Origin: Planctomycetota bacterium
Lineage (GTDB): Bacteria; Planctomycetota; B15-G4; JADJEK01
Direction: 5' to 3'
NCBI GenBank assembly: GCA_044225365.1
Contig: JBGAIQ010000009.1
Span: 1-64,000 of the forward strand
Length of the DNA stretch: 64,000 nt
Shown in pieces: positions 1 to 63,294 of this stretch. The first letter of the stretch is position 1. Each line of letters opens with the position of its first letter. The notes under the pieces are model-generated. The model did no database searches. It worked only from the letters and a program-made list of their open reading frames with translations, and was not told the DNA's origin. The position numbers and the translations under genes are program-made.

Positions 1-140
1 AACGCGAGAGTCGCTCCCTCCGTTGCGAACTCGGTCCATCCCGGGGACTCGAAGCGCAGGGGGATCCCGACGACGTCGCGATAGAACGCCGTCGACCGTT
101 TCATGTCTCGGACGAAGACGATCACGTATTGGAGGAGCAT
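1..140 (-). CDS. VOC/glyoxalase family protein (partial, runs off the left edge)
   Basis: Manual translation MLLQYVIVFVRDMKRSTAFYRDVVGIPLRFESPGWTEF; AAAGGA RBS upstream; not in the ORF track. Confidence 0.85.
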   Translation of the reverse strand, partial: MLLQYVIVFVRDMKRSTAFYRDVVGIPLRFESPGWTEFATEGATLA

Positions 141-178
141 TCCGAGGGGGTCCTTTCGAGCGCGAGCGGCGGGCTTCC

Positions 179-206
179 CACGAACGACAATCATCGCAGG
201 TCGACA
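179..206 (-). promoter_or_regulatory. possible ECF42-type promoter (TGTCGA-N18-CGTG) upstream of the VOC gene
   Basis: TGTCGA -35 box; spacing and -10 are imperfect relative to TGTCGA-N16/17-CGWC. Confidence 0.25.
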
Positions 207-252
207 TCGGACCTTCAAACTGCGTCTTCGCGAGTCTCCGCGCGCGGGGTCG

Positions 253-810
253 TCATGCTTGCGATCGCATCGCGTCGGAGAAGATCCGCTCCGAGCCCTC
301 TGCGATTCGAGCCACCAGATCCGGGATCGCTCGGCCGGCCGCGAAGTCGCGCTCGAACGTGTACGCCATCTCCTCCAGCGGGCTCTGCTCGTATCCGAAA
401 CCGAGCAATCCGAGTCCGTACGCGAGCAAGAAGCGCGAGGGGCCGAGGGTCGCCCACTGCACGACGTGGACCATCTCGTGGAAGCGAAGGCGTTCGCAGT
501 CCTGTCCGCGAGCGACGAAGAACGTGTCCTTGTAGGTCACTCCCGCGGCCGACATCTCTCCCATCGCGGAGAGTTCGGGAACGATGGGATCGAGGAACTC
601 AGCGAAGGGCGGAAAGGGCGTGACGTCGACGCTCACCACTTTCGCTCGTGCGAGCCATTGCCGCGGGAAGTACATGGGCAAGCAATCGTCCGCGAACGAC
701 TGGACGGAACGAGCCTCGTGAGCGTGCGAACGCAGCAATTCGTCGATCCAGCGCTCGAGCGCGGGCAATGCCGTCGTGAATCGAGCGAGGATGTCGCGGT
801 GGTCGGTCAT
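253..810 (-). CDS. hypothetical HExxH protein (DUF4157/eCIS-core-like)
   Basis: FHEMVHVVQW...SPLEEMAY motifs; ATGA overlap with the upstream gene. Confidence 0.7.
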   Translation of the reverse strand: MTDHRDILARFTTALPALERWIDELLRSHAHEARSVQSFADDCLPMYFPRQWLARAKVVSVDVTPFPPFAEFLDPIVPELSAMGEMSAAGVTYKDTFFVARGQDCERLRFHEMVHVVQWATLGPSRFLLAYGLGLLGFGYEQSPLEEMAYTFERDFAAGRAIPDLVARIAEGSERIFSDAMRSQA

Positions 811-1475
811 GAAGGGTCGCATCTTCCAGAATCACTCGTCGCGCGCTCGATCGACGTGATCTGTCGATCCTGCGATCGCGAGAAGACGATGAGGGCCGTG
901 ATCGCGCCCAGCAACGCGAACAACATGTCGGATTGCGTGTCCCAGGGATCCCCCTGCGTCCCCAGGAATTCGTCGGCACCCTTGCCCAGAGTCAGCGCCG
1001 AAGCCCACTCGACGAGTTCGTAGAGCGCGCTGCCGGTCATCGCGATGCAGAACACCACGAATGCGAGCGTCTTCTGCCCGCGAATTCGCGCGCCGCGCGT
1101 CAGGATCTCACGCGCCGTGAGTGCAGGAACCAAGCCCTGCAGGAAGTGGCCGAGCTTGTCGTAGGGGTTGCGTTCGAGGTGGAACGCTTGCTGCACCCAC
1201 GAGCCGAGCGGGACGCGCGCATACGAGTAGGCGCCGCCCCCGATCAGCACGCACGCATGAACGAAGATCGCACCGTAGAGCAGGGGCGTGAGCGGGTATC
1301 GCCGCCGAGTCGCGACGAGGATCGGCAGGACGACGAGCACCGGGAGGACCTCGAGGAACCACGTGGTCCGATCGAATGGGTGGATCCCGGAGATCGTGAG
1401 GATCCCGAGCAGGACCGCGCCGGCGCCGAGGAGGGCGTGATCGTGCGACGCCATCCCTCGATTCTTCGAGCCCAT
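807..1475 (-). CDS. DUF2238 (YjdF-like) inner membrane protein
   Basis: YSYARVPLG, RNPYDKLGHF, FLGTQGDPWDTQSDM motifs. Confidence 0.9.
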   Translation of the reverse strand: MGSKNRGMASHDHALLGAGAVLLGILTISGIHPFDRTTWFLEVLPVLVVLPILVATRRRYPLTPLLYGAIFVHACVLIGGGAYSYARVPLGSWVQQAFHLERNPYDKLGHFLQGLVPALTAREILTRGARIRGQKTLAFVVFCIAMTGSALYELVEWASALTLGKGADEFLGTQGDPWDTQSDMLFALLGAITALIVFSRSQDRQITSIERATSDSGRCDPS

Positions 1476-1922
1476 TCAACGCGCTCGTAGGCCGAACGCC
1501 AATTCGACGGCCCAGCGCTGACTCCCCTCGGTGAGCCGTTCGATCGCGACTTCTGGCGCGATCCATACGGGCTCGGCCTCCGCTCGAGCCTCCGATTCCT
1601 TGGCGAGTAAAGTCGCCGTGAAGAACGAGCAGCGCTTCCGGAAATGCGTGTTCTCGGCCGTACCGAATACAAATTGATCCGCAATGCCGACGAACGACTC
1701 GAGGCGGACGAGCCAACCGATCTCCTCGAGCGCTTCGCGCACAGCCGCATCCTCGATCGATTCGCCCGCTTCCTGCCCGCCTCCCGGTAAATGGACGCCG
1801 GCCTTCGTCTCGATCACCGCGATGTCCCCGTTCTCGTTCTTCAGCAGCACGTATCCACCTGGACGGAGTCGATACTCCACCCCTGGCAAATGGGTCCCGA
1901 ACTCACACAGTGGTCGCGACAT
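1476..1922 (-). CDS. NUDIX hydrolase
   Basis: Nudix box GGQEAGESIEDAAVREALEEIG. Confidence 0.9.
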   Translation of the reverse strand: MSRPLCEFGTHLPGVEYRLRPGGYVLLKNENGDIAVIETKAGVHLPGGGQEAGESIEDAAVREALEEIGWLVRLESFVGIADQFVFGTAENTHFRKRCSFFTATLLAKESEARAEAEPVWIAPEVAIERLTEGSQRWAVELAFGLRAR

Positions 1923-2030
1923 CTCTCGACTCCGACAAGAACTCGGCGAGAGTGCAGAGCTTATCGAAGCAAGGCCGCCGAACTGCCGGTTCGCCGATCG
2001 AGCGTCGAAGGGCGCTTCGCGAAGCAACGA

Positions 2031-2468
2031 TCACTTCGGGGCGCTCGCTCTCAACAATGCCGCCACTTCCTCGTACTCACGCAGCCTTGCGAAGTCCTTC
2101 TCGGTCGGATCCTTCAACCGGCTCAGGTCCATGTTGTCGGCGACGTCCGCCAGCTTGACGACGCGCGCAATCGGATTCGCGGCGGCACGCTTCGCCGCGG
2201 CGAGCCTGCCCTCGCCTTTCGACTTCGTGAGAGCGGCAACGGCTTCCACGACGGGTTCCGGAACACCCTCGGCGCGCAAGTCGTCCAGCGTGATCGGTGT
2301 ATCCTCGACGACGTCGTGCAGTACGGCCGCCATCCGTTCGAATTCGCCTGTCACCGCCAGCATGACGCGGAGCGGATGGAGGATGTACGGCTGGTTCGCC
2401 TTGTCGACCTGTCCGGCGTGCGCGCGCGCGGCGATCTCGATCGCACGCTCCAATTCGAAGGCGGTCAT
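2031..2468 (-). CDS. HD-domain phosphohydrolase (small alarmone hydrolase/Mesh1-like)
   Basis: AHAGQ, PYILHP, AVLHDVVED, VKLADVADN. Confidence 0.88.
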   Translation of the reverse strand: MTAFELERAIEIAARAHAGQVDKANQPYILHPLRVMLAVTGEFERMAAVLHDVVEDTPITLDDLRAEGVPEPVVEAVAALTKSKGEGRLAAAKRAAANPIARVVKLADVADNMDLSRLKDPTEKDFARLREYEEVAALLRASAPK

Positions 2469-2881
2469 GCGATCCACTCCTTCACGACGGCGAGCAGCGC
2501 CGCGCGCTTCTTCTTCAGGTCCAGTTCGTCCTTGAACTCGATCGAGCAGCGATCGTCGCCGTGCCATCGCAGCAAACCCTGTGCATCCTCGATCGCGGGC
2601 CGCGTAACGGGTCGATGCTTCGCGCCTCGATGCAGAATGAGCAAGACCACGTCGTTCGCGCGGGGAGCGAGATTGATGGTCGCGAAGTCGTACTCGAGAA
2701 CGAAGCTCGGTGAATTCCACTTCACACACTCGGTGATTCGCGGATCGACGGAGAGTACGGCCTGCCGCAGCGTCTCGATCATCGTCTTCCTGGGATGTCG
2801 CAACGCGGCCATGTAGGCGTCGACGGTGTCTGCCTTCGCCTGCGATGCCGACTTCGTGGGCTTCTTCTTCGATGGCGTCAT
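2465..2881 (-). CDS. DUF1801 domain protein
   Basis: VDAYM...ITECVKWNSPSF; ATGA overlaps on both sides. Confidence 0.85.
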   Translation of the reverse strand: MTPSKKKPTKSASQAKADTVDAYMAALRHPRKTMIETLRQAVLSVDPRITECVKWNSPSFVLEYDFATINLAPRANDVVLLILHRGAKHRPVTRPAIEDAQGLLRWHGDDRCSIEFKDELDLKKKRAALLAVVKEWIA

Positions 2882-3297
2882 GTTCGCGGCCTCGAATCGG
2901 GGAGGTTCACGATCTTCACGATCTTGCGAAACGTCCAGCGGTATCCCTCGGGATCGATCGCGGAATACGAGCGGTCGCCCCAGAACTTGTCCTCCGGCGG
3001 GCTCTCGATCGTGGCGCCCGCCGCCCTCGCGACTTCGTAATGGCGATCGACGTCGTCGACGTAGCAGAAGAGTTCGACGCAACTCCCGCCGAGTTCGCGC
3101 GGGCTCTTCGCCGACGCATGCGACGAACCGATCGCGAACAGCGTGACATCGCAGAGAGCGAGTTCGGAGTAGATCACCCTCCCGCCCTGCGCGAATCGTC
3201 CGGTCTCGACGAAACCGAATGTGCGAGACAAGAAGGCGATCGCGGCCGGCGCGTCGGAATACGCGAGTCTTGGAAGGAGCGGTTGATGACTTCCCAC
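2878..3297 (-). CDS. VOC family protein
   Basis: AAIAFLSRTFGF, DKFWGDR..DPEGYRW. Confidence 0.88.
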   Translation of the reverse strand: MGSHQPLLPRLAYSDAPAAIAFLSRTFGFVETGRFAQGGRVIYSELALCDVTLFAIGSSHASAKSPRELGGSCVELFCYVDDVDRHYEVARAAGATIESPPEDKFWGDRSYSAIDPEGYRWTFRKIVKIVNLPDSRPRT

Positions 3298-3313
3298 GTC
3301 GGACTCCCGAGGT

Positions 3314-4285
3314 TCATTCGATCGCGATCAGTTCGCAGAACTTCCTCAGATCGATGTTACCCCCCGAGACGATCGCGACGATCGGACCGCGGCCCGCCTT
3401 GCCCGTGAGTGCTGCAGCGAGCGGCAGTGCGCCCGCGCCTTCGGCGATGATCCGCGCCTTCTCCGCCATGAGGCGCATCGCGCGTCGAACCTCGTCGAGG
3501 CTCACGACGATCGTCCCGTCGAGGATCGGGCGCATCCGCTCCCACATGCGCGGGAACACGCTCTGCCCGCCCGCACCGTCGACGAACGAGGGTTTCCAGT
3601 CGGCGAAGGTCTGCGGCGACCCTCGTGCCAGCGAGAGCGTGACGGGGGATGCCGTCTCCGGCTCGGCACCGATCACGCGAACCGACGGTTTCAACGCACG
3701 CATCGCGCTGCCGACGCCGACGACGAGTCCCCCACCACCGATTCCCGCGATGACCGCCGTGGTATCCGGAGCATCCTCCAGGATCTCGAATCCCATCGTC
3801 GCGTGACCCGCGATGAAGTCGTCGTCGTCGAACGGATGCACGAACGCGCCTTCGACTCCCGGATACGCGCGTTCATCGAGTGCGCGCCAAGCGGCGTCGT
3901 AGGGCACGAGGACGAGCTTCGCGCCGAGCGCGCGCATGCGGTCGAGCTTCGCGAGCGGCGCGGACTCGATCGCGACGACCGTGCACGCGACGCCCAACTT
4001 GCGCGCCGCGTAGGCCACGCCCTGCCCGGCATTGCCGGCGCTGATCGTCCAGACGCCCTTGCTGCGTTCTCTTGGATCGAGCTTCGCCACCGCGTTCGCC
4101 GCCCCGCGCAGCTTGTAGGCATTGATCGGCTGCAGGTTCTCGAGCTTCAGGCGGATGTCGGGGAAGTCTCCACCGAGTTCGAGTCGCACGAGCGGAGTGC
4201 GCACGACCGTGTCCGCGATGCGCTCGCGCGCCGCCTGGATCTCCGCGAGCGCGATCGGGCGAACGGGTGGGATTGAGGTCTGCAT
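3314..4285 (-). CDS. PLP-dependent threonine/serine dehydratase family protein
   Basis: KLENLQPINAYKLRGA, SAGNAG, GIGGGGL, SGGN. Confidence 0.9.
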   Translation of the reverse strand: MQTSIPPVRPIALAEIQAARERIADTVVRTPLVRLELGGDFPDIRLKLENLQPINAYKLRGAANAVAKLDPRERSKGVWTISAGNAGQGVAYAARKLGVACTVVAIESAPLAKLDRMRALGAKLVLVPYDAAWRALDERAYPGVEGAFVHPFDDDDFIAGHATMGFEILEDAPDTTAVIAGIGGGGLVVGVGSAMRALKPSVRVIGAEPETASPVTLSLARGSPQTFADWKPSFVDGAGGQSVFPRMWERMRPILDGTIVVSLDEVRRAMRLMAEKARIIAEGAGALPLAAALTGKAGRGPIVAIVSGGNIDLRKFCELIAIE

Positions 4286-4398
4286 GGATCGGTCCCGCAA
4301 CGGGAGTGAAAGACGGCAGCGATCATTCAACACGGTCGCCGAGCGAAACGCATTCCGTTCTCCCGTCCATGATCCCATGATCGAAGGAATCCGAACGA

Positions 4399-5286
4399 TC
4401 ACTTCGCGACGACCGGCTTGCCTCGCGGCAGTGCTGCCAACTCCTCGAGCCTTTCCTTGCTCAAGGGTCGATCCGAGATCGGCTCGATCGCTTCTCCCTT
4501 CTTCGCGATGACGGGATCACCGTACTCTTCCTTCAGCGATGCGAAGACCGCCTCCACGTCCTTGTCTCCTCCTTCCGCGAGGAAGTAGGCGTCGTGGAGG
4601 CGACCCCATTTCCCATCGCCCTCGGCGCGAGTGAGGCACTTCAATTCCTTCACGCTCTTTCCGAGCCAAAGGCGATACAGCGCGAGCTTGGGGACCTCAC
4701 GCTGCTTGCCCGAGAAGTTCTCGAGGAACGAGACGAGGCCTCCGCCAAGAAGCGCGACGCTGCGCGCGGACTTCTCGTCGCCGTTCGGACTCGAGATCGT
4801 CGCGACCGGGATCCACTTGTTCGATGTCACATCGAAGACGAAGTACAAGAGATCGGTCGTCTCCTTCTCGGCGCCCTTCTCCTTGCGGACGAAGAACCGA
4901 ATCGTCTGGCCGAGGTGCCAATCACAAGGTCGATGGGTATGAGCCCCTTCGCCTTCACCCCCGAACCGATTGAGGATCGTCTTCTCGTCGGCTTCGATGA
5001 CCTTCGGGTGCAGTTCCTTCGAGGTGTCCCACACCGAGCAGATCGTGCGCTTCTCCTCGCCGCGATTGTGCTGGATGCCGCAATAACCTCCCGCGGGCTC
5101 ACCGGGATGCCAATTCGCGCCGCAGTAGTACGTGTTCGAATTCGTCGCGAGGACGGTGATCTCGCCGTACAGGCACGTCGCCTCGTCGAGACCCTTCGTG
5201 TCCCACCAGAGGTGTTGAGCCATCGCTGCATGCGACAGGACCCAGGTAGCGAGGAGGAAGTGGAGGACGAGTCGTATCGGTCGCAT
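4399..5286 (-). CDS. secreted DUF3472/DUF5077-like protein
   Basis: Signal peptide; GYCGIQ, SVWD, FGGEGEG, SFLENF motifs. Confidence 0.75.
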   Translation of the reverse strand: MRPIRLVLHFLLATWVLSHAAMAQHLWWDTKGLDEATCLYGEITVLATNSNTYYCGANWHPGEPAGGYCGIQHNRGEEKRTICSVWDTSKELHPKVIEADEKTILNRFGGEGEGAHTHRPCDWHLGQTIRFFVRKEKGAEKETTDLLYFVFDVTSNKWIPVATISSPNGDEKSARSVALLGGGLVSFLENFSGKQREVPKLALYRLWLGKSVKELKCLTRAEGDGKWGRLHDAYFLAEGGDKDVEAVFASLKEEYGDPVIAKKGEAIEPISDRPLSKERLEELAALPRGKPVVAK

Positions 5287-5617
5287 TGGGATCCGGTCGC
5301 ACAGAGTCGCGAAGGTCTACAGGGTGCCGTCGAGGATCACCAGCGCCGCTGGCGCCGTGAGAGAGCACACGCCCAGTGCGTCACACGTCGCGGATTGTAA
5401 GAAGTACCGCCCCCCCGCCTCTGGAGGGCCGCGCCGTACTGCGGAAGCAGCGTGTGACCGCGGTCGACCGATCCCAGCAGGAAGACGGAGAAGTGGGGTC
5501 ACTCTTCGCGACGCCGCTCCGCTCAGCACGCCCTCATCCTAATTCACGATGAATCGCGCGACCCGGGCTCCCCGAAGAAACTTGGCGACGACGCGCCTCC
5601 CCGCCGAATTCCCCTTC

Positions 5618-5849
5618 CGGCGGTTACGGATCGCAGCCGCCGCCGCCGGCGGTTACGGATCGCAGCCGCCGCCGCCGGCGGTTACGGATCGCAGCCGTCG
5701 CCACCGGCGGTTACGGATCGCAGCCGTCGCCACCGGCGGTTACGGATCGCAGCCGCCGCCACCGGCGGTTACGGATCGCAGCCGTCGCCGCCGGCGGTTA
5801 CGGATCGCAGCCGTCGCCGCCGGCGGTTACGGATCGCAGCCGCCTCCGC
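5618..5849 (+). repeat. tandem array, 8 x 29 bp palindromic unit CGGCGGTTACGGATCGCAGCCGYCGCCRC
   Basis: Directly visible 29-bp period; CCGCCGAATT at 5601 and 5846. Confidence 0.95.
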
Positions 5850-5866
5850 CGAATTGGGCGTGGCGT

Positions 5867-6319: not shown

Positions 6320-6320
6320 C

Positions 6321-6827: not shown

Positions 6828-6833
6828 GGGGAT

Positions 6834-7214: not shown

Positions 7215-7280
7215 GCGCGCCCTCGTGGCTCGGATTCGCTCTACCAATCGGGGTCGAAAGTCTCGCGCCGCCGCCGGCCA

Positions 7281-7823: not shown

Positions 7824-7846
7824 TTCGATTCCTCCTTCGGTCTTCT

Positions 7847-54967: not shown

Positions 54968-54976
54968 GCGTCGGTG

Positions 54977-55303: not shown

Positions 55304-55317
55304 CGAGACGGCTCGAG

Positions 55318-55827: not shown

Positions 55828-55963
55828 GGTTCACCTCGATGGTTGCATCGCATTGCCGCTACCCGGCGAGCGGCGGTGCGAGTGTACCGTCTCATTCGTC
55901 CGCATCGTCATGGTCCTAATTGCGCGGTCCGCTGAAAGAGTCGGCCGAGCACAAGGACCAAGG

Positions 55964-55987
55964 GTCAGTTACAGCACTCGGATAGGG
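55964..55987 (-). other. degenerate attC-like half site (R''/L'')
   Basis: + strand GTCA GTTACAGC ACTCG GATAGGG, 7 bp after a stop codon. Confidence 0.4.
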
Positions 55988-55994
55988 CAAAGCG

Positions 55995-56528: not shown

Positions 56529-57484
56529 GCCCCGATTTCCCCTGTCAGCCGTTGGCCCGAGCAGGCCCCACGTCGCCGTGCCGCGCGCAATAGCAGCACG
56601 ACCGCGACCGATGTCGACGCCATCACCAGCCACGAACTCTCGGGACCGAACATTCCACCGGTCAGCCAGTCCGGCCCGGCATAGCGGCTCTCGAGTGGCG
56701 CCAATTTGCGCCAGTCCTCGATTCCGGAGAGCGGCACGCCCGCGAGGAGTATGGTGAAGTTCCATGCCGCGTGATGCGCGGCCACCGCCCATAGGTTACG
56801 CGTCAGGATGAACACCGCGGCCCAGAGAAGGCCCGTCAAGATCACTGCGATCAACATCGTCACCAGATCGAAAGCCCCGCCTTCCGCAACGTTCTCCACG
56901 TGTTGCAGGGCGAACGCCACCGCCTGCACCACCAGCGCCACCTTCGTTCCCCCGGCTCGCTCCACGACGCGGAACAGCAGACAGCGAAATGTCAGCTCTT
57001 CCAAGGTGGCCGCGATGCAGAGGAAGGCGGCTACGCCGAACAGGGCCGGCGAGAAGCCGCGAAACAGCACCCGTTCGTACACGCCCAGTGCGAACAGGAT
57101 AGCGATCGGCAGCCCTACCATGGCTGCACCGCTCGCTGCGCCGAGCATCAGGTGAATTGGCCGCAGACGCAGCTCGGTCGCTTCGCGCTTCTCATGCCAG
57201 TGAACGAATGCCCAGTAGGACCCCACCGCCGTGAGAAGGATGCCGACGCGCCGGACGACACTGAGCCATTCGGCGCATGGATGAAAGGCTGCGTCGATCA
57301 GCGGCAGCAGGCCCTTTCGGAAGATCAGCATCGAGCCAAGGATCGCCACCCCACCCAGCAGCAGGGAGCCGAGCATACGACCGGCGACTCGGATACGACC
57401 TCGCGCACCGCTTTCCGTTACAAGCCGAACGGTGCCGCTCGTCTTTGCATTCTCGGGGTCGACCCGCGGATCTTGATGCTTCAT
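56525..57484 (-). CDS. CPBP/CAAX (Abi) intramembrane glutamic endopeptidase
   Basis: EELTFR, FALQH, HAAWN, TGGMFGPE. Confidence 0.92.
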   Translation of the reverse strand: MKHQDPRVDPENAKTSGTVRLVTESGARGRIRVAGRMLGSLLLGGVAILGSMLIFRKGLLPLIDAAFHPCAEWLSVVRRVGILLTAVGSYWAFVHWHEKREATELRLRPIHLMLGAASGAAMVGLPIAILFALGVYERVLFRGFSPALFGVAAFLCIAATLEELTFRCLLFRVVERAGGTKVALVVQAVAFALQHVENVAEGGAFDLVTMLIAVILTGLLWAAVFILTRNLWAVAAHHAAWNFTILLAGVPLSGIEDWRKLAPLESRYAGPDWLTGGMFGPESSWLVMASTSVAVVLLLRAARRRGACSGQRLTGEIGA

Positions 57485-57685
57485 GTCGCTGCTCAGATGC
57501 GGTGCGCGGCGAACGGAGCGCGGCACGCGCTCGGCGGCGTCGGCGGTGCGGAGAATATAGGATTCCGTGAACGAGCTCCAGCATGGACGGGCGGATGGGG
57601 ATTCGACTCTGGCCGGACAGCCTCTTGCCCTATATCCCCGATGCCCCGATGCCCTACAGCACACGCTCGGCAGCAGACCGGAGCG

Positions 57686-58252
57686 CTACTTGGATTGGAA
57701 CATCCAACGAATTCCGTACCGGTCGTTCAGTGCGCCGTAAAGGCCGAACGGCTGTTCAACGAGCGGATCCGTGACGTTGGCTCCATCGGAGAGCTTCGTG
57801 AAGGCGGCCTTGATCTCGTCTCTACTTCCACCGCTGAGGTAGAGGCACACCGTATTGCCTTGAACGGGGGTCTCCGTCGGTCGCAGCCAGTCGGAGGCCG
57901 AGATGTCCGCGAGGTCGCTCTTGAGCCTCGCGTTCACGATCCTGCCATGCATCGAGGGCGGGAACATCGACTTCATTGGTGAGTCACCCACGGAAGTCAT
58001 TACCAATTCCCCACCGAGCGCCTCGTGATAGAAGGACATGGCGTCCTTACACGTTCCTGGCAGGAGAAGGTACGGCGTCAAGTGCATGGATTGACTCTCC
58101 AAGTCCGGTTTGTCGGGGGTTGCAGTGGCGACGCCGCTGGCGGTCGTCATCGCGGGCTGCGTCTCGCTCGACGCAGAACAGCTTACGATGACCAGACAAT
58201 TCAGAAGCGCCGCGATTCTGATTGCTCGAAGGCGGATGGACGATAGGGGCAC
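57686..58252 (-). CDS. VOC (PhnB-like) protein, probably with a lipoprotein leader (alternative start 58087)
   Basis: LTPYL..CKDAMSFY, DRYGIRW; in-frame IVSC lipobox. Confidence 0.8.
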   Translation of the reverse strand: MPLSSIRLRAIRIAALLNCLVIVSCSASSETQPAMTTASGVATATPDKPDLESQSMHLTPYLLLPGTCKDAMSFYHEALGGELVMTSVGDSPMKSMFPPSMHGRIVNARLKSDLADISASDWLRPTETPVQGNTVCLYLSGGSRDEIKAAFTKLSDGANVTDPLVEQPFGLYGALNDRYGIRWMFQSK

Positions 58253-58324
58253 AGTTGACTCCGGGGGCGATCGATACGAAACCGTTGTCTGCCGACCACT
58301 CGGCAGCGTAGCACGCGAGGCCGC

Positions 58325-58348
58325 GTCGGCTGCGTGCTGTTGTTTCCT
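58325..58348 (-). other. degenerate attC-like half site
   Basis: + strand GTCG GCTGCGTG CTGTT GTTTCCT. Confidence 0.35.
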
Positions 58349-58367
58349 GGACGTCCGCGATGCGCTT

Positions 58368-58830
58368 CTAGAGAATAGCAACGATGACCTCCCTGTTTCG
58401 CTTTACGGCGACGAATCTGGGCGCGTGTCCTAGCGCGTCACGACTGGAGGCTGCCCCGTGATCGAGTAAGACGACCGCCTTCTCGATCCTACCACTTCGT
58501 ACGGCGTTCTACAGATGCGTAGCGCCCTCCCGCGATCGCACGTCGACCGGCGAAGCCCGCTCGAGAAGCAAGGTCAGGATTGCAAGATCCTGCGACACGA
58601 GTGCCCCATGCAGCGGTGCGGGGCCGCCACTCGCGCGCAGTCGATGGGGACGCCAGCGGCCAAGTGCTCGTCCATCGCAGGCGTGCTCGCGCGCGCGGCT
58701 GTGATATGGAGTATGGAGCGAGTCTTGTAGGGGGCAGTCCGGAATAGGCCGAACGAGATCGAGCGGAGTGGCGGCCGGTAAACCCCGCCGATCGCACGCG
58801 TTCACGTCCGCTCTGTGATCGAGTGCGCTT
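58368..58830 (-). pseudogene. ankyrin-repeat pseudogene
   Basis: LDHRADVNACDRRG, PLHGAL..LLLERASPVD..GATHL*NAVRSG..LLDHGA; internal TAG at 58509 and probable frameshifts. Confidence 0.7.
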
Positions 58831-58884
58831 CTCCTTCGGCATCCGTTCTCGGCCGAGTTCTTCCACGGGCTGTTCGCCGCCTGT

Positions 58885-59154
58885 CTACCCATCCAGCCAT
58901 GGTCCCTTCTCCCACTTGGGCCCTTCCGCCGACACTTCGAGAATGCGAGTGCGAGAGAGTTGGCGCCAGGGTGTCTGACTCGCGTCGTACTCGACGATTT
59001 CATACTTTCGGCCGCAGGTCTTCCACGTCGTGCACGGTGCGGCGTTCGGGGGCTGGTCCCACGGCATCTCGGCGCGCCGGCGAACTTCGGCAAGAGCGTC
59101 GTCGAAGGTGCCGAACTCACCGATCTGTTCAGCGTGAGATTCGTCTTCGATCAC
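58885..59154 (-). CDS. hypothetical protein
   Basis: VIEDESHAE, PWDQPPNAAPCTTWKTCGR; start uncertain. Confidence 0.7.
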   Translation of the reverse strand: MIEDESHAEQIGEFGTFDDALAEVRRRAEMPWDQPPNAAPCTTWKTCGRKYEIVEYDASQTPWRQLSRTRILEVSAEGPKWEKGPWLDG

Positions 59155-59283
59155 GAAAATCGGGACACCTCGCGGGTGCGGCGGGCAACGCGTTGAAAGT
59201 ACCGGCACTCCCCAGTGCGCGCGACTCGGAAAACGCGGTGGACCGCGCTCCGCGCCCATCCGTCCGGTATCCTGCCCGCCATC

Positions 59284-59751
59284 TCAGCCCTGCTCCTCAT
59301 GGATGAGTCTGAACTTCCGATTCAGGTCCACTGTCTTGAACGAGAAATAGAATCCGGAGTATTCCGGGTCGGCGCGATCCGACGCAGGCACGATCCTCTC
59401 CTCCACGGCATCATAATCCACTGCGGAGGCGTAGGTGCCGATGGCTCGCGCTTCTACTGGCTCGGTGTCCACCACGACTCGGTCGCCCTTCCTGAGCCTG
59501 GCCTGCCCACCCCCCGTGAACGGCGCTCCCCACGACGTCATGTAGTGAACGTCCACGTCGTCCAGCGCCTCGTAGATGTCTCCTTTGCGGGGAAAACGCA
59601 TGTCCGCCGGAATAAGGCTGCGCTCGTAATCCCGGGCCCATACCCATTCGGAATGTCCGATCGAGGTCCGCTCGCCGCGCTCCATTTCTGCGCATAGGTC
59701 GTCGATCGTCTTGTTCCAACCGGACGGGGTTGGCGGCACGGAGTTGCTCAT
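59284..59751 (-). CDS. hypothetical protein
   Basis: RFPRKGDIYE, WGAPFTGG; GGAGG RBS. Confidence 0.72.
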   Translation of the reverse strand: MSNSVPPTPSGWNKTIDDLCAEMERGERTSIGHSEWVWARDYERSLIPADMRFPRKGDIYEALDDVDVHYMTSWGAPFTGGGQARLRKGDRVVVDTEPVEARAIGTYASAVDYDAVEERIVPASDRADPEYSGFYFSFKTVDLNRKFRLIHEEQG

Positions 59752-59926
59752 CGAAGCCTTCGCCTCCACGTTGGTCCGCAAGCTCTGAATCGAGAGACAC
59801 CACGCGAAATGGGCCGTCGCTCCCCACATCGAAAGCGCCACGCCCTCGACTCCCTGATGTCGCGTACCGCCGAGCGGTGTGTCGCGTCCGAGAGCATCGG
59901 GTCTCGGGTTGCCTGGATCGCGGCGT

Positions 59927-59950
59927 GTCCGCTCCTTTGGCGAGTTGGCG
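59927..59950 (-). other. degenerate attC-like half site
   Basis: + strand GTCC GCTCCTTT GGCGA GTTGGCG, 7 bp after a stop codon. Confidence 0.45.
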
Positions 59951-59957
59951 GGCCACT

Positions 59958-60278
59958 TTACCAACCCATCACGGCGGGAAGTCGCCGGCCCGCCGCATCG
60001 ATCAGAGTCCAGAGGTCGATGAGAAAGCACAGGGCGAGCATGATTCGGCCGACCGTTGGAACGCGACGCCAGATCACGACAGAAAGCACCGAGGCCAAAG
60101 CCGCGATGCCGATGACCTGCATCACGATCGAACGATAGTCATTGTTTGCGAATGTGATCATGTTGATCGCGAACGCGTACAACGTCATGAGCAAGACGAG
60201 GGTGTAGCCCAGCGCAACCAACGGAAATGTCCTCCTTACCGGCCGGTTCGAAGATGCCGCCCCGAGGAATCCGTTCAA
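59958..60278 (-). CDS. small membrane hypothetical protein
   Basis: 3 TM segments; start uncertain. Confidence 0.6.
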   Translation of the reverse strand: MNGFLGAASSNRPVRRTFPLVALGYTLVLLMTLYAFAINMITFANNDYRSIVMQVIGIAALASVLSVVIWRRVPTVGRIMLALCFLIDLWTLIDAAGRRLPAVMGW

Positions 60279-60319
60279 TGCACACGCGGGCCCCCGAAGG
60301 AGCGCGCCGCATCGGGTTC

Positions 60320-60339
60320 GCTCGAGCGAGAGGTCATGC
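60320..60339 (-). other. attC-like half site containing the upstream stop codon
   Basis: + strand GCTCGAGC GAGAG GTCATGC; TGA stop lies inside R''. Confidence 0.5.
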
Positions 60340-60804
60340 GTCCATCCTCAGTAGGTGTGAAAGGATGCGGTTGAGAGTTTCGCGAAGTTCCATCCGCTCC
60401 TCGTCATCGAACGTCGGCACGAGGTTCGACATCCCGCACGAAAGGTACTCGAGAACGACCGCTCGCTCGTTGGCGGGCCAATGGCGAAATTCGAGGCGAA
60501 GCAATGTCTCCGACAGATGAAGGGGGTACAACGGCGGCTCGTGCCAAGGAGGGCCGAGGATTCGAAGGATACGCGGGAGATAGCGCCGGTAGGCACTGGC
60601 ATTTTCGCAATGGTCGAACGACTCCCACAACAACTTGCGACTGAGATCGTGGTCGAGCGCCTCGAGCGGTATGGAGGCGAGTCGATCGATGTCGTCCTCG
60701 GAGTAACAGTAATTGCAGAATTCCGCACGGATCCGCTGGTAGGCAGCGAACGTCTTGTAGAGCGCACTCGTGTCCGGCGATGGCACTATGAACGGTTCTC
60801 GCAT
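60334..60804 (-). CDS. hypothetical protein
   Basis: YRRYLPRIL, WPANERAVV.EYL. Confidence 0.72.
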   Translation of the reverse strand: MREPFIVPSPDTSALYKTFAAYQRIRAEFCNYCYSEDDIDRLASIPLEALDHDLSRKLLWESFDHCENASAYRRYLPRILRILGPPWHEPPLYPLHLSETLLRLEFRHWPANERAVVLEYLSCGMSNLVPTFDDEERMELRETLNRILSHLLRMDA

Positions 60805-61122
60805 GAGGCACATCGCAGCCGAGGAAATTGGACCTCTTCGACCTCGAACTGGCGCCTGAGGCAGCAGTCTATCGTCCACAGGTCGTCCTGTCGCCGTCAT
60901 CGGACCACGATCGTGTGTCGTTCACGTGGCCCGTCTCTTGAGGTCACATCCTCCCGAGCCGTGTCGATCCAGATCTCGCAACCTTGTCGGGCGAGGCCGG
61001 CTCGTGGTCGATGAGGCGCAGACCCCTGTCGGAACGCACGCAGTCGCGAAGGGTCAGGCAGCCGCAAACAGCGCGTCGGCCAAGGCCCGCGAGGAGGCGT
61101 CCAGGCCGTCATAGGCGCCCAT

Positions 61123-61662
61123 TCACGTTTCGTCGCGCTCGATCCTTCCACCGGACACGACCAAATGCGGCGCGTCTGCTTCGGGGCGAAAGAGCCGCCA
61201 ATCCTCATCGATCGATCCAGACGGGAACACTGCAAGTCTATACCCGCCGTTGAAGGCGATCGTGAATGAGCCGTGCGATTGAATCGCGACCGACTCGACG
61301 AGCAAACCAGTATCGTTCGACATGACTCGCTCCATCCGCAGATCTTGCACGTTACCGTCACGGTCGTAATCCCGGTCGTCGTCCGAGAATCCCTCGGGTT
61401 CATGGAGCGGCCGCAGTAGATCGGCCCGACCCGTGACGATTTCCTTGTCCGTCTCGATTCGCCACGGACACTGAATATGGAGGGCAAAGTCGCACACTGT
61501 TCCGCGCGGCTCGCCCTTTCGAAAGGGAAGTACCGATTCCGCCGCGCGACGGATGGTGCCGAAGTGAAGTACGCGCATGTCGCAAGCCCGTCTTGCGATG
61601 GACAGCTTCAGGCCAACCAACTGCTTCAGCGCTTCGAGGATCTCAGTATCATCCCGATCCAA
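61123..61662 (-). CDS. hypothetical protein
   Basis: ALHIQCPWRI, EDWRLFRP. Confidence 0.8.
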   Translation of the reverse strand: MDRDDTEILEALKQLVGLKLSIARRACDMRVLHFGTIRRAAESVLPFRKGEPRGTVCDFALHIQCPWRIETDKEIVTGRADLLRPLHEPEGFSDDDRDYDRDGNVQDLRMERVMSNDTGLLVESVAIQSHGSFTIAFNGGYRLAVFPSGSIDEDWRLFRPEADAPHLVVSGGRIERDET

Positions 61663-61678
61663 TCATATGTCCTTTGGA

Positions 61679-61847
61679 GAAGAGCGGCTGAGCTGAGCGG
61701 TGCGCGCGCTTGCATCGGAGATCGTCCTTTCTCTTCCGACGCGTCTCACCGCGCGAGGTGGTAGGCCGCGAGCCGCACCCCGCGATTCAGCGTTGGGCAA
61801 GTCGAGTGTAGCTGTATGAGATCATTCGTTGCAACGGCACGTTATCG
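61679..61847 (-). other. degenerate attC site (61679-61798) plus a second half site (61828-61847)
   Basis: + strand GAAGAGC GGCTGA GCTGAGC...GTTGGGC; GTTGCAAC GGCAC GTTATCG with a TAA stop inside R''. Confidence 0.55.
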
Positions 61848-62696
61848 GGCACGCCACCATCCGTCCGCCTCGAAAAGCATCGCGGCAGCCTCCTGCGCGA
61901 CGATCGCGGGCGGCGTGCCGTTGTCGTAGCGCAACCACTTGCCATCTTCGCCCATCGTCGGAGCTCCGAGGCGATGAGACAGATTGGGATGAAGATCGTG
62001 AGTGGTCACCTTGTTGGGCGGAACCGCCTTACCCCAGCCCAATATCACGCCGGTCGGTCCGCATCGACCGATCTCGATCACGAATCCCCCGCCCCACCTA
62101 TCGAATTGTATGGTCAAAAGATCGATGCCGGTCGAAGCGGCACGCCGAAAGTGCGGCAACGATCCTTTGAACCCGCGTGCGCGCAACTGCGGCACGAAGT
62201 GTTCTCGCAAGGCGTCTTTCATCGCGTCATTGCTCATGTCATGTTCTCTCCATCCTCGAGCGGCGAGTTCGCAAGCAAAATCTGCCGGGATACACGAATA
62301 ATGGGGAGCGCGCTGCTCGTCATCCGTCGGCGAAGGCGTAAAGCGCACGAACTCGGCTTTCTCCCGGCGGCGATCCATCCAACGCCAGATTCGGTAGTTC
62401 ACCTGTCCCTTGACGGGCGGCTGCTGAAGTAACTCCGGCCCGGCGAGGTGCGAGAAGTCGTTGTCGCGACGGACTCGAAGGATCCGGTCTTCGCGTTTCG
62501 GGATGATGAAATCCACCGCCGCGTTGAAGCCCTCTCCGATCGCTCGCTCGGCAACAACGGGCGGTGACGACCGCGGACCGTGAAAGACGAATACCCAATG
62601 GCCCCCGAACAAGATCTGCTTGGTCATTACAGCGATCAAGAAGTAGACGCCGTCTTTTCGGACTGCGACAAGGTCACCCGAGCGGATCTGAATCAC
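61842..62696 (-). CDS. hypothetical domain fused in frame to a DUF4304 domain (internal start 62237)
   Basis: VPQLRARGFKGSLPHFRR..QFDRWGGGF. Confidence 0.78.
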   Translation of the reverse strand: MIQIRSGDLVAVRKDGVYFLIAVMTKQILFGGHWVFVFHGPRSSPPVVAERAIGEGFNAAVDFIIPKREDRILRVRRDNDFSHLAGPELLQQPPVKGQVNYRIWRWMDRRREKAEFVRFTPSPTDDEQRAPHYSCIPADFACELAARGWREHDMSNDAMKDALREHFVPQLRARGFKGSLPHFRRAASTGIDLLTIQFDRWGGGFVIEIGRCGPTGVILGWGKAVPPNKVTTHDLHPNLSHRLGAPTMGEDGKWLRYDNGTPPAIVAQEAAAMLFEADGWWRAR

Positions 62697-62726
62697 GGAA
62701 GCACCTGAGTTGCAGTCGACCGGTCT

Positions 62727-62839
62727 TCACAACGGTTGAGCTCGTTCGGGAACGCGGGCTCGCGCCTTCCGGGAAACGTCATTTCAGTCCGAACACGGCT
62801 GTTCATCCATCGCCTGTTCGTTCGAGCGAAGTGTTCGAC
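62727..62839 (-). other. integron attC-like site (113 bp)
   Basis: + (bottom) strand TCACAAC GGTTGA GCTCG...TTCGAGC GAAGT GTTCGAC: intact AAC/GTT cores with 6- and 5-bp spacers. Confidence 0.65.
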
Positions 62840-62922
62840 CGAAACTCACCCGATCGCCACGGACGGCGAACCGATCTGTCGCACTTTCGGATGCAGCGAA
62901 ACATTCGGTCTCGCTTTCACGG

Positions 62923-63294
62923 CTACCAGTACGCTTCGAGGCCATGGCCGCGCGAGGACCAATACTCGCACCACCGTGCCGCGGTGAACAGAATATGAGC
63001 TCTTGATTCTTCACTGCCTTCCTCGAACTCTGGGCGTGCCACGCGCTCCACGTGAGCAACTCCCGCCTTTGCGGAGAACGACGTTGCCCTTGCACGTAGT
63101 TCATGACCCAGTGCCTCTAGGCCTGGTGCGAGACAACTCTCGTAGCATTTCTCCAGGGTTGCCATTCCGATGATGTCCTCGCAGTCATGCAGAAACTGCG
63201 CGCGAAAACTGGGTCTTCCGGGAATCGTGTGGGTTTGAGGCTCAAAATCGCTTGGTTCGGCTGACAGCGTGACGTGAACCCGTTCCACGCTCAC
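62923..63294 (-). CDS. hypothetical protein
   Basis: SFRAQFL.DC, AARWCEYWSSRGHGLEAYW. Confidence 0.78.
   Translation of the reverse strand: MSVERVHVTLSAEPSDFEPQTHTIPGRPSFRAQFLHDCEDIIGMATLEKCYESCLAPGLEALGHELRARATSFSAKAGVAHVERVARPEFEEGSEESRAHILFTAARWCEYWSSRGHGLEAYW

What the first reader, a model, noticed from the sequence alone, without database searches (positions are those of the whole stretch)
1..63294. Possible age gradient: cassettes domesticated into ATGA-coupled operons across >60 kb
Seen: nearly 90% of genes are minus-strand. At the right (5') end they are singletons with attC remnants and look less GC-rich by eye. Leftwards no clear attC remains, and functionally unrelated genes are joined by ATGA/GTGA overlaps (807, 2465, 2878, 11790, 14459, 31228, 36975, 37499, 38325, 56525). 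Established: new cassettes enter at attI at the 5' end. Inference: the whole window records cassette ageing, with attC loss, amelioration, translational coupling and in-frame fusions.
Basis: inference. Interest (0 to 1): 0.75.

Follow-up and report, generated by a model that had tools for sequence, protein, structure and literature searches.

The report
Gene tract beside a dead integron
The window is a long run of small, same-direction accessory genes lying next to a broken gene-capture element (integron), and only its last 10 kb look like recently captured genes, so the proposed 60-kb "ageing record" is plausible but only partly shown.

Summary
The window has no recognisable attC site. The integron lies just beyond its right end. 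A 5'-truncated intI sits at contig position 70.95-71.56 kb, on the same strand as the cassettes. Five attC sites lie at 66.1-68.7 kb.

Confirmed:
- 66 of 75 genes are on the minus strand, which puts the window in the top 1.4% of 75-gene windows in this genome.
- All ten ATGA/GTGA sites exist.
- The right end is less GC-rich and has long spacers.
- There is no synteny with relatives, although the flank beyond intI is syntenic.

Not confirmed:
- attC remnants inside the window. The look-alike motif at 61.8 kb is a terminal repeat of an ISL3 element.
- A smooth gradient. GC3 rises steeply over the first ~20 kb from attI, then stays flat just below the genome mean.
- ATGA coupling as a signature. 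It occurs in 24.6% of pairs here and 25.5% genome-wide.

In favour of an ex-cassette origin:
- Apart from the ribosomal-protein cluster, the only blocks of small co-oriented genes in 6.5 Mb lie in this tract.
- Glyoxalase, DUF1801 and PhnB-like genes are concentrated here.
- Homologs of two left-side genes are attC-flanked elsewhere.

Verdict: partly supported. This is a decayed integron with a probable, unproven, fossil cassette tail.

The parts
1..12590 (-). Block A. 20 consecutive minus-strand genes, mostly small. In order: glyoxalase fragment, unknown, DUF2238, NUDIX, HD, DUF1801, glyoxalase, PALP enzyme, DUF3472, two unknown, cupin, DinB_2, Cass2/GyrI-like, GNAT, PhnB-like PF06983, iron permease, unknown, FG-GAP, SDR. 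The run continues into contig C90.
   Evidence: Gene calls and Pfam. This is one of only four regions in the genome with at least 13 of 15 genes co-oriented and at least 11 of 15 genes under 200 aa. GC3 is 0.787 against a genome value of 0.83, p 2.9e-5. No attC. The median spacer of 53 nt is like the genome.
12805..29661 (.). Block B. Genes of ordinary size: ion channel (+), 338-aa protein, SASA esterase, 140-aa unknown, DUF1501 with PSCyt2/PSD1, DPP-IV peptidase (+), ACT-domain 2-hydroxyacid dehydrogenase, methyltransferase, 240-aa unknown, 984-aa DUF2341/LamG/SASA protein, SDR.
   Evidence: Composition does not differ from the genome (GC3 0.817, p 0.30). The DUF1501 gene has 17 paralogs elsewhere in the genome. 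The 338-aa and SASA genes are joined by ATGA at 14459, but their homologs lie on different contigs in G006, G007 and G008.
29769..39162 (-). Block C. 15 small minus-strand genes and one plus-strand TPR gene: WapI-like immunity, DUF3592, CPXCG, glyoxalase, O-methyltransferase, DUF1569, SDR, two DUF1801, YjbR-like, and several unknown.
   Evidence: Flagged by the small co-oriented block scan. GC3 is 0.792, p 3e-4. The DUF1801 pair is 70% identical to a pair lying 147 nt after an attC in G003:C44. Metagenome homologs of the gene at 37502-37939 carry co-oriented attC sites in 9 of 80 loci.
39279..52501 (.). Block D, mixed. Unknown (+), RlaP nucleotidyltransferase, amino-acid permease, DUF2200, DUF7079, CHAT-TPR protein of 1079 aa (+), ankyrin, glyoxalase, DUF1579-YCII-ECF sigma (+), YCII, glyoxalase, BamE-like.
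   Evidence: GC3 is 0.793, p 1.4e-3. YCII and the sigma factor are also adjacent in G003:C137.
52502..62718 (-). Block E, probable attC-eroded cassettes. 12 called minus-strand genes that are mostly singletons: PhnB-like, macro domain, Imm21 with a CPBP protease, glyoxalase-like, DUF4304, and six without a Pfam family. Spacers are long.
   Evidence: GC3 is 0.742 and codon score 0.173, p about 1e-6 to 1e-5. The median spacer is 179 nt. 6 of 12 proteins have a Pfam hit. The genes at 58885-59154 and 59958-60221 have homologs placed 26 nt and 58 nt after attC sites in G010:C211 and G004:C3. The best left-half attC score just after stop codons is slightly raised, p 0.01. No attC reaches significance.
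62719..64000 (+). Left part of an ISL3-family insertion sequence. The element runs to contig position 65541 and the transposase ORF is 63407-64744. It interrupts the array.
   Evidence: Pfam DDE_Tnp_ISL3, HTH and zinc ribbon. Terminal inverted repeats at 62719-62744 and 65516-65541. The transposase has no paralog in the genome.
61800..61860 (.). Solo copy of the ISL3 terminal repeat. It mimics the left half of an attC site.
   Evidence: It aligns with both IS ends. Motif search.
807..56528 (-).
   Evidence: All ten are present. The rate of possible overlaps equals the genome's, 15 of 61 against 820 of 3222.

Best explanation
The window is the attC-free tract that extends away from a dead chromosomal integron of the 'inverted integrase' type.

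Shown:
- The platform lies 7 kb beyond the window's right end. An intI remnant keeps only its C-terminal ~163 residues and sits on the same strand as the cassettes.
- It is followed by a first cassette carrying TIR/ThsB-like/SLATT genes.
- Five attC sites lie between contig positions 66.1 and 68.7 kb.
- An ISL3 element then interrupts the array at 62.7-65.5 kb.

Inferred, likely: the right-hand 10 kb of the window (52.5-62.7 kb) are cassettes that entered at attI, were pushed outward by later insertions, and have lost their attC sites.

Inferred, about even odds: the remaining 52 kb, plus about 12 kb more on the adjoining contig C90, is a mosaic.
- Blocks of small, co-oriented genes of cassette-type families are very old ex-cassettes. 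They are already native-like in spacing and in start/stop overlaps.
- These blocks are interleaved with ordinary chromosomal genes.

Mechanism proposed: insertion occurs only at attI and in one orientation, which gives co-orientation and an age order. Once an attC decays, its cassette can no longer be excised and becomes fixed. Composition then drifts towards the host's.

The record is a steep rise followed by a plateau, not a smooth gradient. ATGA coupling is not a specific mark of it.
For: The integron:
- TIGR02249 matches model positions 154-315 with 224.7 bits at C71:70966-71451 on the minus strand.
- The fragment is 75% identical over 163 aa to a full-length IntI of relative G004, which itself scores 439.6 bits. 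No N-terminal half is found in the searched stretch, which reaches about 1.3 kb upstream.
- attC model hits, all on the minus strand, score 70.4, 46.7, 37.0, 19.7 and 13.3 bits between 66.1 and 68.7 kb.

Locus:
- Synteny with G006, G008 and G003 covers 72-106 kb and stops at the imuA-like gene next to intI.
- Window genes that have matches in relatives are scattered over different contigs.

Composition: GC3 in 10-kb bins outward from attI is .657.759.797.800.798.812.785.819 and .835, against a genome value of .83. The left 52.6 kb is still below the genome (p 8e-10; size-matched small genes p 1.3e-5).

Architecture: the only regions of the 6.5-Mb genome with at least 13 of 15 co-oriented and at least 11 of 15 small genes are C71 3-12590, 29769-39162 and 49486-71547, plus the ribosomal-protein cluster.

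Gene content:
- The window holds 4 of 17 genome matches to Glyoxalase PF00903, with a fifth straddling its left edge on C90.
- It holds 3 of 6 DUF1801 matches and 2 of 2 PF06983 matches.
- It is 1% of the genome.
- VOC/glyoxalase enzymes and acetyltransferases are reported as universally enriched in cassettes (PMC10661359, passages read).

Homologs elsewhere:
- The PhnB-like gene at 8994-9488 has co-oriented attC hits in 6 of 80 genome loci from several phyla.
- DUF1801 at 37502-37939 has them in 9 of 80 metagenome loci. In L172 and L201 the attC lies 46-47 nt after the stop codon.
- 22 of the 24 attC hits in those loci are on the homolog's strand.

Orientation: GC skew is negative on the + strand, so the minus-strand genes run with replication. 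Chromosomal integrons are reported to be oriented with the recombinogenic attC bottom strand on the leading-strand template (PMC11023631, passages read). That this corresponds to cassette genes running with replication is my own inference.
Against: - No attC, half attC, or population-level attC signal ties the left 52 kb to the integron (p 0.16).
- Left of 52 kb there is no positional trend in GC, GC3 or codon score (rho about 0.03-0.06, p above 0.6).
- Spacing and NTGA overlaps there equal the genome's.
- 49 of 62 left-side proteins have a Pfam family. Among attC-flanked ORFs of relatives the figure is 12 of 34 (at a tenfold stricter E-value). In that respect the left side looks like ordinary genes.
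- Blocks B and D hold large genes of multi-copy native families.
- G006 has a similar run of small minus-strand genes at a partly orthologous locus (G006:C8 44-67 kb). It shares three homologs with the window, has no attC, and the family search found no intI match at E 1e-30 or better in G006. Such tracts may therefore exist without an integron.
- Arrays with attC sites in relatives are short, with 2-6 sites.
- Cassette association of a gene family elsewhere does not show that these copies arrived as cassettes. I had no control family.
- Everything rests on one metagenome-type assembly and on my own gene caller.
Confidence: 0.5

Rival explanations
1. Only the proximal ~18 kb, from contig position 52.5 to 71 kb, is of integron origin. 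The left 52 kb is an ordinary lineage-specific plasticity zone of small accessory genes that was never in cassettes. The integron simply sits, or landed, at its edge.
For: - No attC trace of any kind left of 52 kb.
- Spacing and stop/start overlaps are like the rest of the genome.
- The Pfam hit rate of 49 of 62 is like normal genes.
- There is no positional trend within 0-52 kb.
- A comparable attC-free tract exists in G006:C8, with no intI match found in G006 at E 1e-30 or better.
- Integrons in relatives sit at other loci, so this one may be a late arrival.
Against: - Apart from the ribosomal-protein cluster, the only small co-oriented blocks in the genome are contiguous with the integron and share its orientation.
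- Cassette-typical families are concentrated 25- to 100-fold here.
- The left part is compositionally below the genome even after size matching.
- Homologs of both left-side genes tested are attC-flanked elsewhere.
- The DUF1801 pair follows an attC in G003.
Confidence: 0.35
2. In it the whole window is one continuous age series in which attC loss, amelioration, ATGA coupling and in-frame fusion all advance progressively with distance from attI.
For: There is an overall trend of GC3 and codon score with distance (rho 0.52 and 0.48). Overlaps are rarer in the right block (1 of 11 pairs) than further left (14 of 50). The 338-aa and SASA genes, coupled by ATGA in this genome, are unlinked in three relatives.
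Against: The trend saturates within about 20 kb. The rate of possible overlaps on the left equals the genome background, so it carries no age information beyond 'not recent'. No fusions were found. Blocks of ordinary large genes interrupt the series.
Confidence: 0.1
3. The strand bias is a replication or transcription effect and has nothing to do with gene capture.
For: GC skew is negative throughout, so minus-strand genes run with replication. The rest of contig C71 is also minus-rich, 79% overall.
Against: Other large contigs show only 35-65% of genes on one strand. A value of 88% is reached by 1.4% of windows, and those lie only here and in the ribosomal cluster. This explanation does not account for gene size, family enrichment or composition.
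Confidence: 0.05

Closest known systems
Chromosomal integrons of the 'inverted integron-integrase' group, first described in Treponema spp. (named in PMC4889954, passage read)
   Same: intI lies on the same strand as the attC sites and cassette genes. The cassettes follow the 3' end of intI. The same arrangement is seen in relative G004:C79.
   Different: Here intI lacks its N-terminal half. Only five attC sites remain, two of them degenerate.
Pseudo-integrons, meaning arrays with an inactivated intI. Examples are the Xanthomonas integrons and the roughly one third of intI genes reported as pseudogenes (PMC2426708 and PMC12444791, passages read)
   Same: The integrase is inactivated, the array has become fixed, and an IS sits inside the array.
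   Different: The passages I read describe arrays that still have attC sites. They do not describe a long attC-free co-oriented tail with a compositional gradient. My searches listed no paper on such a tail. I read listings and selected passages only.
CALIN, clusters of attC sites lacking an integrase (IntegronFinder paper PMC4889954, passages read)
   Same: One proposed origin of CALIN is loss of intI. intI pseudogenes were found near 15 of 279 CALIN. Relatives of this genome carry CALIN, for example six attC sites in G006:C11 inserted between genes that are adjacent in this genome.
   Different: The window itself has no attC at all, so it is not a CALIN.
Large sedentary chromosomal integrons of Vibrio (PMC11023631, passages read)
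   Same: A tract tens of kb long of small co-oriented accessory genes that runs with replication.
   Different: As I recall, Vibrio arrays keep a homogeneous attC after every cassette. Here about 80 kb have none.

Membership tests
Integron (intI + attI + attC-bounded cassettes) | An integron-type tyrosine recombinase gene | tested here: inconclusive
   A remnant only. TIGR02249 model positions 154-315 score 224.7 bits, below the 265 cut-off. The fragment is 75% identical to the C-terminal 163 aa of a full-length IntI of G004, which scores 439.6 bits. No N-terminal half was found. That the missing part includes a catalytic arginine, and that the retained 'WQWVFP' stretch belongs to the IntI-specific extra domain, are recalled and not tested. 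The gene lies outside the window.
Integron (intI + attI + attC-bounded cassettes) | Two or more attC sites (R''-L''...L'-R' hairpins) in one orientation close to intI | tested here: met
   Five minus-strand hits lie at contig positions 66131-68673, 2.3-4.8 kb from intI. Three are strong (70.4, 46.7 and 37.0 bits) and two degenerate (19.7 and 13.3 bits). The model recovered sites held out of its first seed and found attC sites in other phyla. All five are outside the window.
Integron (intI + attI + attC-bounded cassettes) | attC sites within the window 1-64000 | tested here: not met
   With filters off there was no credible hit. The best, 23.1 bits, is a GC-rich tandem repeat. There was no minus-strand half-site of 12 bits or more.
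Integron (intI + attI + attC-bounded cassettes) | An attI site and a cassette promoter | not tested
   No model of attI was available. The sigma-70 consensus scan of 70.3-72.2 kb found 0 sites, which says little for this organism.
CALIN | A cluster of at least 2 attC sites without a nearby intI | tested here: not met
   The window has no attC. The five sites outside it lie beside an intI remnant.
Sedentary chromosomal integron as defined in PMC4889954 (more than 19 attC sites, or present in all genomes of the species) | More than 19 attC sites | tested here: not met
   Five sites.
Sedentary chromosomal integron as defined in PMC4889954 (more than 19 attC sites, or present in all genomes of the species) | Present in 100% of the species' genomes | not testable with these tools
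   The collection holds only this genome for its genus.
Inverted integron-integrase group | [quoted passage not shown] | tested here: met
   Both are on the minus strand.
ISL3-family insertion sequence | A DDE_Tnp_ISL3 transposase with its HTH and zinc ribbon, plus terminal inverted repeats | tested here: met
   Pfam E-value 3.8e-63. 26-nt inverted repeats at 62719-62744 and 65516-65541, 77% complementary. I did not look for a target-site duplication.

The most novel reading that the evidence does not exclude
In this lineage the integron works as a one-way conveyor that feeds the chromosome. Only a handful of attI-proximal cassettes keep working attC sites. Older cassettes lose them, can no longer be excised, and pile up as a growing co-oriented tail about 84 kb long (the 71 kb up to attI plus 12.5 kb on contig C90). 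That tail is progressively compacted, ameliorated and wired into host-like operons. Much of the window would then be a fossil record of tens of capture events that standard attC-based integron finders cannot see.
Probability: 0.35. Interest if true: 0.7.

Novelty: new member of a known kind. Interest (0 to 1): 0.5.

Why it matters
What happens to integron cassettes in the long run is poorly documented. It is unclear whether they are only a shuffled reserve or a real route by which genes become permanent chromosomal residents.

A tract that keeps the integron's orientation, gene-size and gene-family signature after every attC has gone would have two consequences:
- attC-based surveys would be undercounting integron-derived DNA.
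- It would give a natural series in which attC decay, amelioration and operon formation can be ordered in time.

As it stands, the solid result is smaller. It is a decayed inverted-type integron with a truncated integrase, an IS insertion and a defence-gene first cassette. The suggestive part is a neighbouring tract that is unusual for this genome.

Tried and rejected
- A GC3-only gene caller confused sense and antisense frames. I replaced it with a codon log-odds caller trained on 671 long ORFs.
- Hand-written attC scanners, using RYYYAAC...GTTRRRY plus stems, gave 109 hits genome-wide with no clustering. Window-scale counts were no higher than in Markov shuffles. Only the site at 68.6 kb was real, so I dropped the scanners in favour of covariance models.
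- The motif GTTGCA[AG]CG as a marker of the attC left arm gave 82 genome hits. Two of the four tract hits (65.5 and 61.8 kb), which I first read as attC half-sites, are ISL3 terminal repeats.
- Rfam gave no family hit in the window or over the 168-bp repeat.
I replaced it with blastp against my own gene calls.
- A tRNA-linked island is ruled out, as the window has no tRNA.
- Replichore bias as the sole cause of co-orientation is rejected.
- The promoter scan at attI found nothing.
- I did not use structure prediction, complex prediction or read mapping. None would separate the two leading explanations.

Full report
**Setting.** The window is the first 64 kb of a 161-kb contig (C71) of a 6.53-Mb, 65.1% GC draft genome in 103 contigs. 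I trained a codon log-odds model on 671 long ORFs and called 75 genes in the window, 66 of them on the minus strand. Pfam gave at least one family for 56 of the 75. The genome has many PSCyt2/PSD1/DUF1501 genes, including 17 DUF1501 paralogs. From memory that points to Planctomycetota or a neighbouring phylum. I did not verify the taxonomy.

**Where the integron is.**
- A whole-genome search with the integron-integrase model TIGR02249 gave one strong match, at C71:70966-71451 on the minus strand. It covers only model positions 154-315 and scores 224.7 bits against a cut-off of 265.
- Against a full-length IntI of relative G004 (439.6 bits), the G000 sequence aligns at 75% identity over residues 173-335. 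Nothing in the searched stretch, which reaches about 1.3 kb upstream, aligns to the N-terminal half. The gene is therefore 5'-truncated, and the other tyrosine-recombinase matches in the genome are weak.
- The integrase and the cassettes are on the same strand. This is the 'inverted' arrangement mentioned in PMC4889954, and it is also seen in G004:C79.
- Between intI and the window lie TIR, ThsB-like TIR and SLATT genes, then DUF4279, UPF0167 and several ORFs without a family.
- An ISL3-family element spans 62719-65541, with 26-nt terminal inverted repeats.

**attC sites.**
- Pattern scanners of my own were no better than shuffles.
- I built a covariance model from four clear sites of this bacterial family and searched the 12 genomes of the family with it. 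I then rebuilt the model from 34 hits.
The second found co-oriented attC sites in proteobacterial, Rokubacteria and metagenome contigs, so it is not narrowly family-specific.
- With filters off, contig positions 60-78 kb gave five minus-strand sites. They are 68673-68610 (70.4 bits), 67221-67129 (46.7), 67763-67656 (37.0), 66194-66131 (19.7, E 0.0035) and 68119-68000 (13.3, E 0.25, right core mutated).
- The window itself gave 62 matches at E up to 10, and none is credible. The top one (22641-22703, 23.1 bits) lies in a 36-nt GC-rich tandem repeat and lacks the AAC/GTT cores. The first 20 kb of contig C90 gave nothing below E 0.25.
- Half-site weight matrices, built without this genome's own sites, found hits of 12 bits or more only at 67.2-68.7 kb on the cassette strand. 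There was also one hit on the other strand inside a coding region. About 0.5 is expected by chance for each matrix.
- I took the best left-half score just after each stop codon as a population measure. It is slightly raised in 52.6-63.4 kb (12 genes, one-sided p 0.01). It is not raised in 0-52.6 kb (61 genes, p 0.16) or on C90 (15 genes, p 0.28). The right half shows nothing.
- A motif at 61.8 and 65.5 kb that I first read as decayed attC is the terminal repeat of the ISL3 element. The highest score in the 52.6-63.4 kb group comes from that copy, so the p 0.01 should be read with care.

**Extent of the tract.** The first 140 bases of C71 equal the reverse complement of the first 140 bases of contig C90. 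The glyoxalase gene cut at the window's left edge is complete on C90, so the two contigs adjoin. On C90, 14 further genes continue in the same relative orientation for 12.5 kb: glyoxalase, an Atl-like DNA-binding protein, YjgF, a GAF histidine kinase, DUF1697, two GNATs, an esterase, YjbR, DUF3592 and a P450. From attI outward the tract is therefore about 84 kb.

**Strand bias.** Among 1164 sliding 75-gene windows, 1.4% reach 88% on one strand. All of them lie on C71 or on C93, which carries the ribosomal-protein and rpoBC cluster. Sixteen large contigs show 35-65% minus genes, varying with the sign of GC skew, and C71 shows 79%. GC skew on the + strand is negative almost throughout the window, so the minus-strand genes run with replication. 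PMC11023631 reports that chromosomal integrons are preferentially oriented with the attC bottom strand on the leading-strand template. That this corresponds to cassette genes running with replication is my inference. Replication bias alone does not give 88% in this genome.

**Composition.**
- Within the window the trend with position is weak. For GC3, Spearman rho is -0.25 with p 0.03. It comes entirely from the right 11 kb, since left of 52 kb rho is about 0.03-0.06 with p above 0.6.
- Over the whole tract (97 genes, including nine hand-defined ORFs at 64.6-70.6 kb that my caller missed or only partly called because they are so atypical), mean GC3 in 10-kb bins outward from attI is .657.759.797.800.798.812.785.819 and .835. 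The genome mean is .83. Rho is 0.52 with p 4e-8. Beyond 18.4 kb rho is 0.19 with p 0.10.
- The left 52.6 kb is still significantly below the genome (GC3 .796, p 8e-10; small genes against small genes, p 1.3e-5). Block B (12.6-29.7 kb) and the C90 part are not.
- This is a saturating curve, steep near the integron and then nearly flat.

**Spacing and overlaps.** Median same-strand spacers are 33-53 nt in the four left blocks, 51 nt genome-wide, and 179 nt at 52.6-64 kb. A stop/start overlap of this kind is possible at 15 of 61 same-strand pairs in the window and at 820 of 3222 in the genome. It is therefore an ordinary feature here. What it shows is that the left part is not a recent cassette array, where an attC would separate the genes. 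In the right block there is one such pair in 11 (Imm21 with a CPBP protease).

**What makes the left part unusual.**
- I scanned all 3457 windows of 15 genes for at least 13 co-oriented and at least 11 under 200 aa. This returned only C71 3-12590, C71 29769-39162, C71 49486-71547 and the ribosomal-protein region of C93.
- Six-frame family searches of the whole genome place in the window 4 of 17 Glyoxalase matches (a fifth is the gene at the C71/C90 junction), 3 of 6 DUF1801 matches and 2 of 2 PF06983 matches. The window is 1% of the genome.
- Vicinal-oxygen-chelate (glyoxalase) enzymes and acetyltransferases are reported as universally enriched among integron cassettes (PMC10661359, passages read).
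- Most window genes have no paralog in the genome.

**Relatives.**
- The 40 kb to the right of intI are collinear with G006:C13, G008:C126 and G003:C93/C94/C49. The collinearity stops at the imuA-like gene next to intI.
- Beyond that point the neighbours in G006 and G003 match scattered contigs of this genome and nothing in C71:1-71000.
- Window segments that do match relatives at the DNA level land on different contigs or distant places. Two pairs are exceptions: the DUF1801 pair (G003:C44 and C84) and YCII with the ECF sigma factor (G003:C137).
- The 338-aa and SASA genes, joined by ATGA at 14459, match different contigs in G006, G007 and G008.
- Integrons and attC clusters in relatives sit at other loci. 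In G006, a cluster of six attC sites is inserted between orthologs of two genes that are adjacent in this genome.
- G006:C8 24.5-28 kb is orthologous to C90:28-31.7 kb. It is followed, at 44-67 kb, by a run of small minus-strand genes that includes homologs (55-62% identity) of three window genes. That run has no attC with filters off, and the family search found no strong intI match in G006. This can be read as an older fossil of the same tract, or as evidence that such tracts do not need an integron.

**Are homologs cassette-borne elsewhere?**
- In about 267 kb of relatives' attC-bearing loci, five window genes have a homolog within 2 kb of an attC, against 111 of 4782 genes genome-wide.
- The clear cases are 58885-59154 (26 nt after an attC in G010:C211), 59958-60221 (58 nt after one in G004:C3), and the DUF1801 pair (70% identity, same order, 147 nt after the only attC of G003:C44, with no attC after the pair). 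The ThsB-like gene outside the window is another.
- The PhnB-like protein (8994-9488) has its 80 best genome matches (56-66% identity) spread over many phyla. attC hits at E below 0.05 on the gene's strand occur in 6 of those loci. There are 11 hits at E up to 0.1 in 829 kb, 10 of them on that strand.
- The DUF1801 protein (37502-37939) has 80 metagenome matches at 67-79% identity. There are 12 co-oriented attC hits in 9 loci, and in L172 and L201 the attC follows the gene by 46-47 nt. There are 13 hits in 447 kb, the thirteenth being the reverse-strand echo of one site.
- I had no scans left for a control family. The only internal controls are the E-values and the strand asymmetry.

**Against the ex-cassette reading of the left part.**
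- Pfam coverage is 49 of 62 proteins at 0-52.5 kb and 6 of 12 at 53-62.7 kb.
- Among ORFs lying between attC sites in relatives it is 12 of 34. I left out loci L075 and L076, whose second site was weak or on the other strand, and ORFs upstream of the first cassette. The E-value limit was 1e-4 there and 1e-3.
- True cassettes in this family are mostly orphans and defence genes (SAVED/JAB/ThiF, ThsB, ParE, immunity proteins). The left part is mostly well-known small enzyme families, plus blocks of large native-type genes.
- This fits survival of the useful few, but it fits 'never cassettes' equally well.

**Interpretation.**
- I consider it shown that a decayed integron of the inverted type lies at 62.7-71.6 kb.
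- It is likely (about 0.75) that 52.5-62.7 kb are eroded cassettes.
- It is about even (0.45-0.5) that blocks A and C and the C90 stretch are ancient ex-cassettes.
- The order of events expected from neutral decay matches what is seen. A 60-nt hairpin becomes undetectable long before third-position composition equilibrates, and attC is gone by about 5 kb while composition levels off at 20-30 kb. This argument is inference.

**Literature.** intI pseudogenes (about one third of intI genes), decay and loss are described in PMC2426708 (passages). PMC4889954 covers CALIN and intI pseudogenes near 15 of 279 of them, and the idea that single attC sites may be degraded cassettes (passages). PMC12444791 discusses integrase inactivation stabilising arrays in Xanthomonas (passages). 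Four searches listed no paper that describes a long attC-free, co-oriented, compositionally graded tail. I saw listings and selected passages only. Subscription journals are not covered, and I did not open supplements.

**Limits.**
- The assembly is one draft, 94% complete.
- Gene calls are my own and miss very atypical genes. Uncalled stretches are listed.
- Model E-values are rough by the tool's own statement.
- The closest relatives belong to other genera, so fine-scale age ordering could not be tested.

Noticed in passing
contig C71 68680-70578, beyond the window (locus L008 8680-10578): The first cassette after attI carries three genes: TIR_2, a ThsB-like TIR and a double SLATT domain. 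It ends in the best attC site and looks like an anti-phage defence cassette. A ThsB-like plus DUF4231 cassette with 67% identity sits after an attC in G004:C3.
   Followed up: partly
contig C71 72067-77440, beyond the window (locus L021 67-5440): An imuA-like, imuB-like (IMS family) and dnaE2-like mutagenesis operon lies directly next to the intI remnant and is transcribed away from it. It is the first syntenic gene set shared with relatives. Only the IMS domain has a family hit. The imuA and dnaE2 names rest on size, position and recall.
   Followed up: partly
window 47935-48102: A 168-bp palindromic, MITE-like dispersed repeat. It has 26 further matches in this genome at 68-100% identity, including reverse-strand self-matches, and many copies at 82-87% in G006 and G008. 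There is no Rfam family. Some copies were false positives of my hairpin scanner.
   Followed up: partly
window 5588-5906, 22551-22809, 31548-31764: GC-rich tandem repeats with periods of 29 and 36 nt, built on a GGCGG...GATCGCAGCCGCCGCC hairpin unit. They lie in intergenic spacers. Similar arrays occur on at least 15 other contigs. They produce the best false attC hit.
   Followed up: no
window 61800-61860, and contig positions 62719-62744 and 65516-65541: The ISL3 element has a third, solo copy of its terminal repeat about 0.9 kb to its left. This is either the remnant of a second copy or a miniature derivative.
   Followed up: partly
contig C71 70748-70780 and 65163-65195 (weaker copy at 62704-62736): A 33-nt motif containing TTATCCAGACC occurs in the attI region and again inside the IS, at 85% identity. 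The attI region also holds a palindrome of the same core. It could be a protein-binding site, but I have no explanation.
   Followed up: no
window 1-140 and contig C90 1-140: The two contigs overlap by exactly 140 bases in reverse complement, inside a glyoxalase gene. This looks like a de Bruijn graph break, possibly marking strain variation at this point.
   Followed up: partly
locus L058 (G006:C11 127.5-138.4 kb): A cluster of six attC sites, plus about 4 kb of attC-free co-oriented sequence containing a cupin homolog, is inserted between orthologs of two genes that are adjacent in this genome (C32 2536-3666 and 3739-4479). This is a second example of an attC-free tail after an array.
   Followed up: partly
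locus L060 (G006:C1 6456-6696): Short intI fragments (75% identity over 53 aa and 62% over 29 aa) lie about 4.8 kb from an attC site in G006. The family search found no intI match at E 1e-30 or better in that genome, so intI decay seems recurrent in this family.
   Followed up: no
window 43922-47158: A 1079-aa TPR-CHAT protein on the plus strand inside the tract. It is preceded by DUF7079 and DUF2200 genes and may be a conflict system.
   Followed up: no
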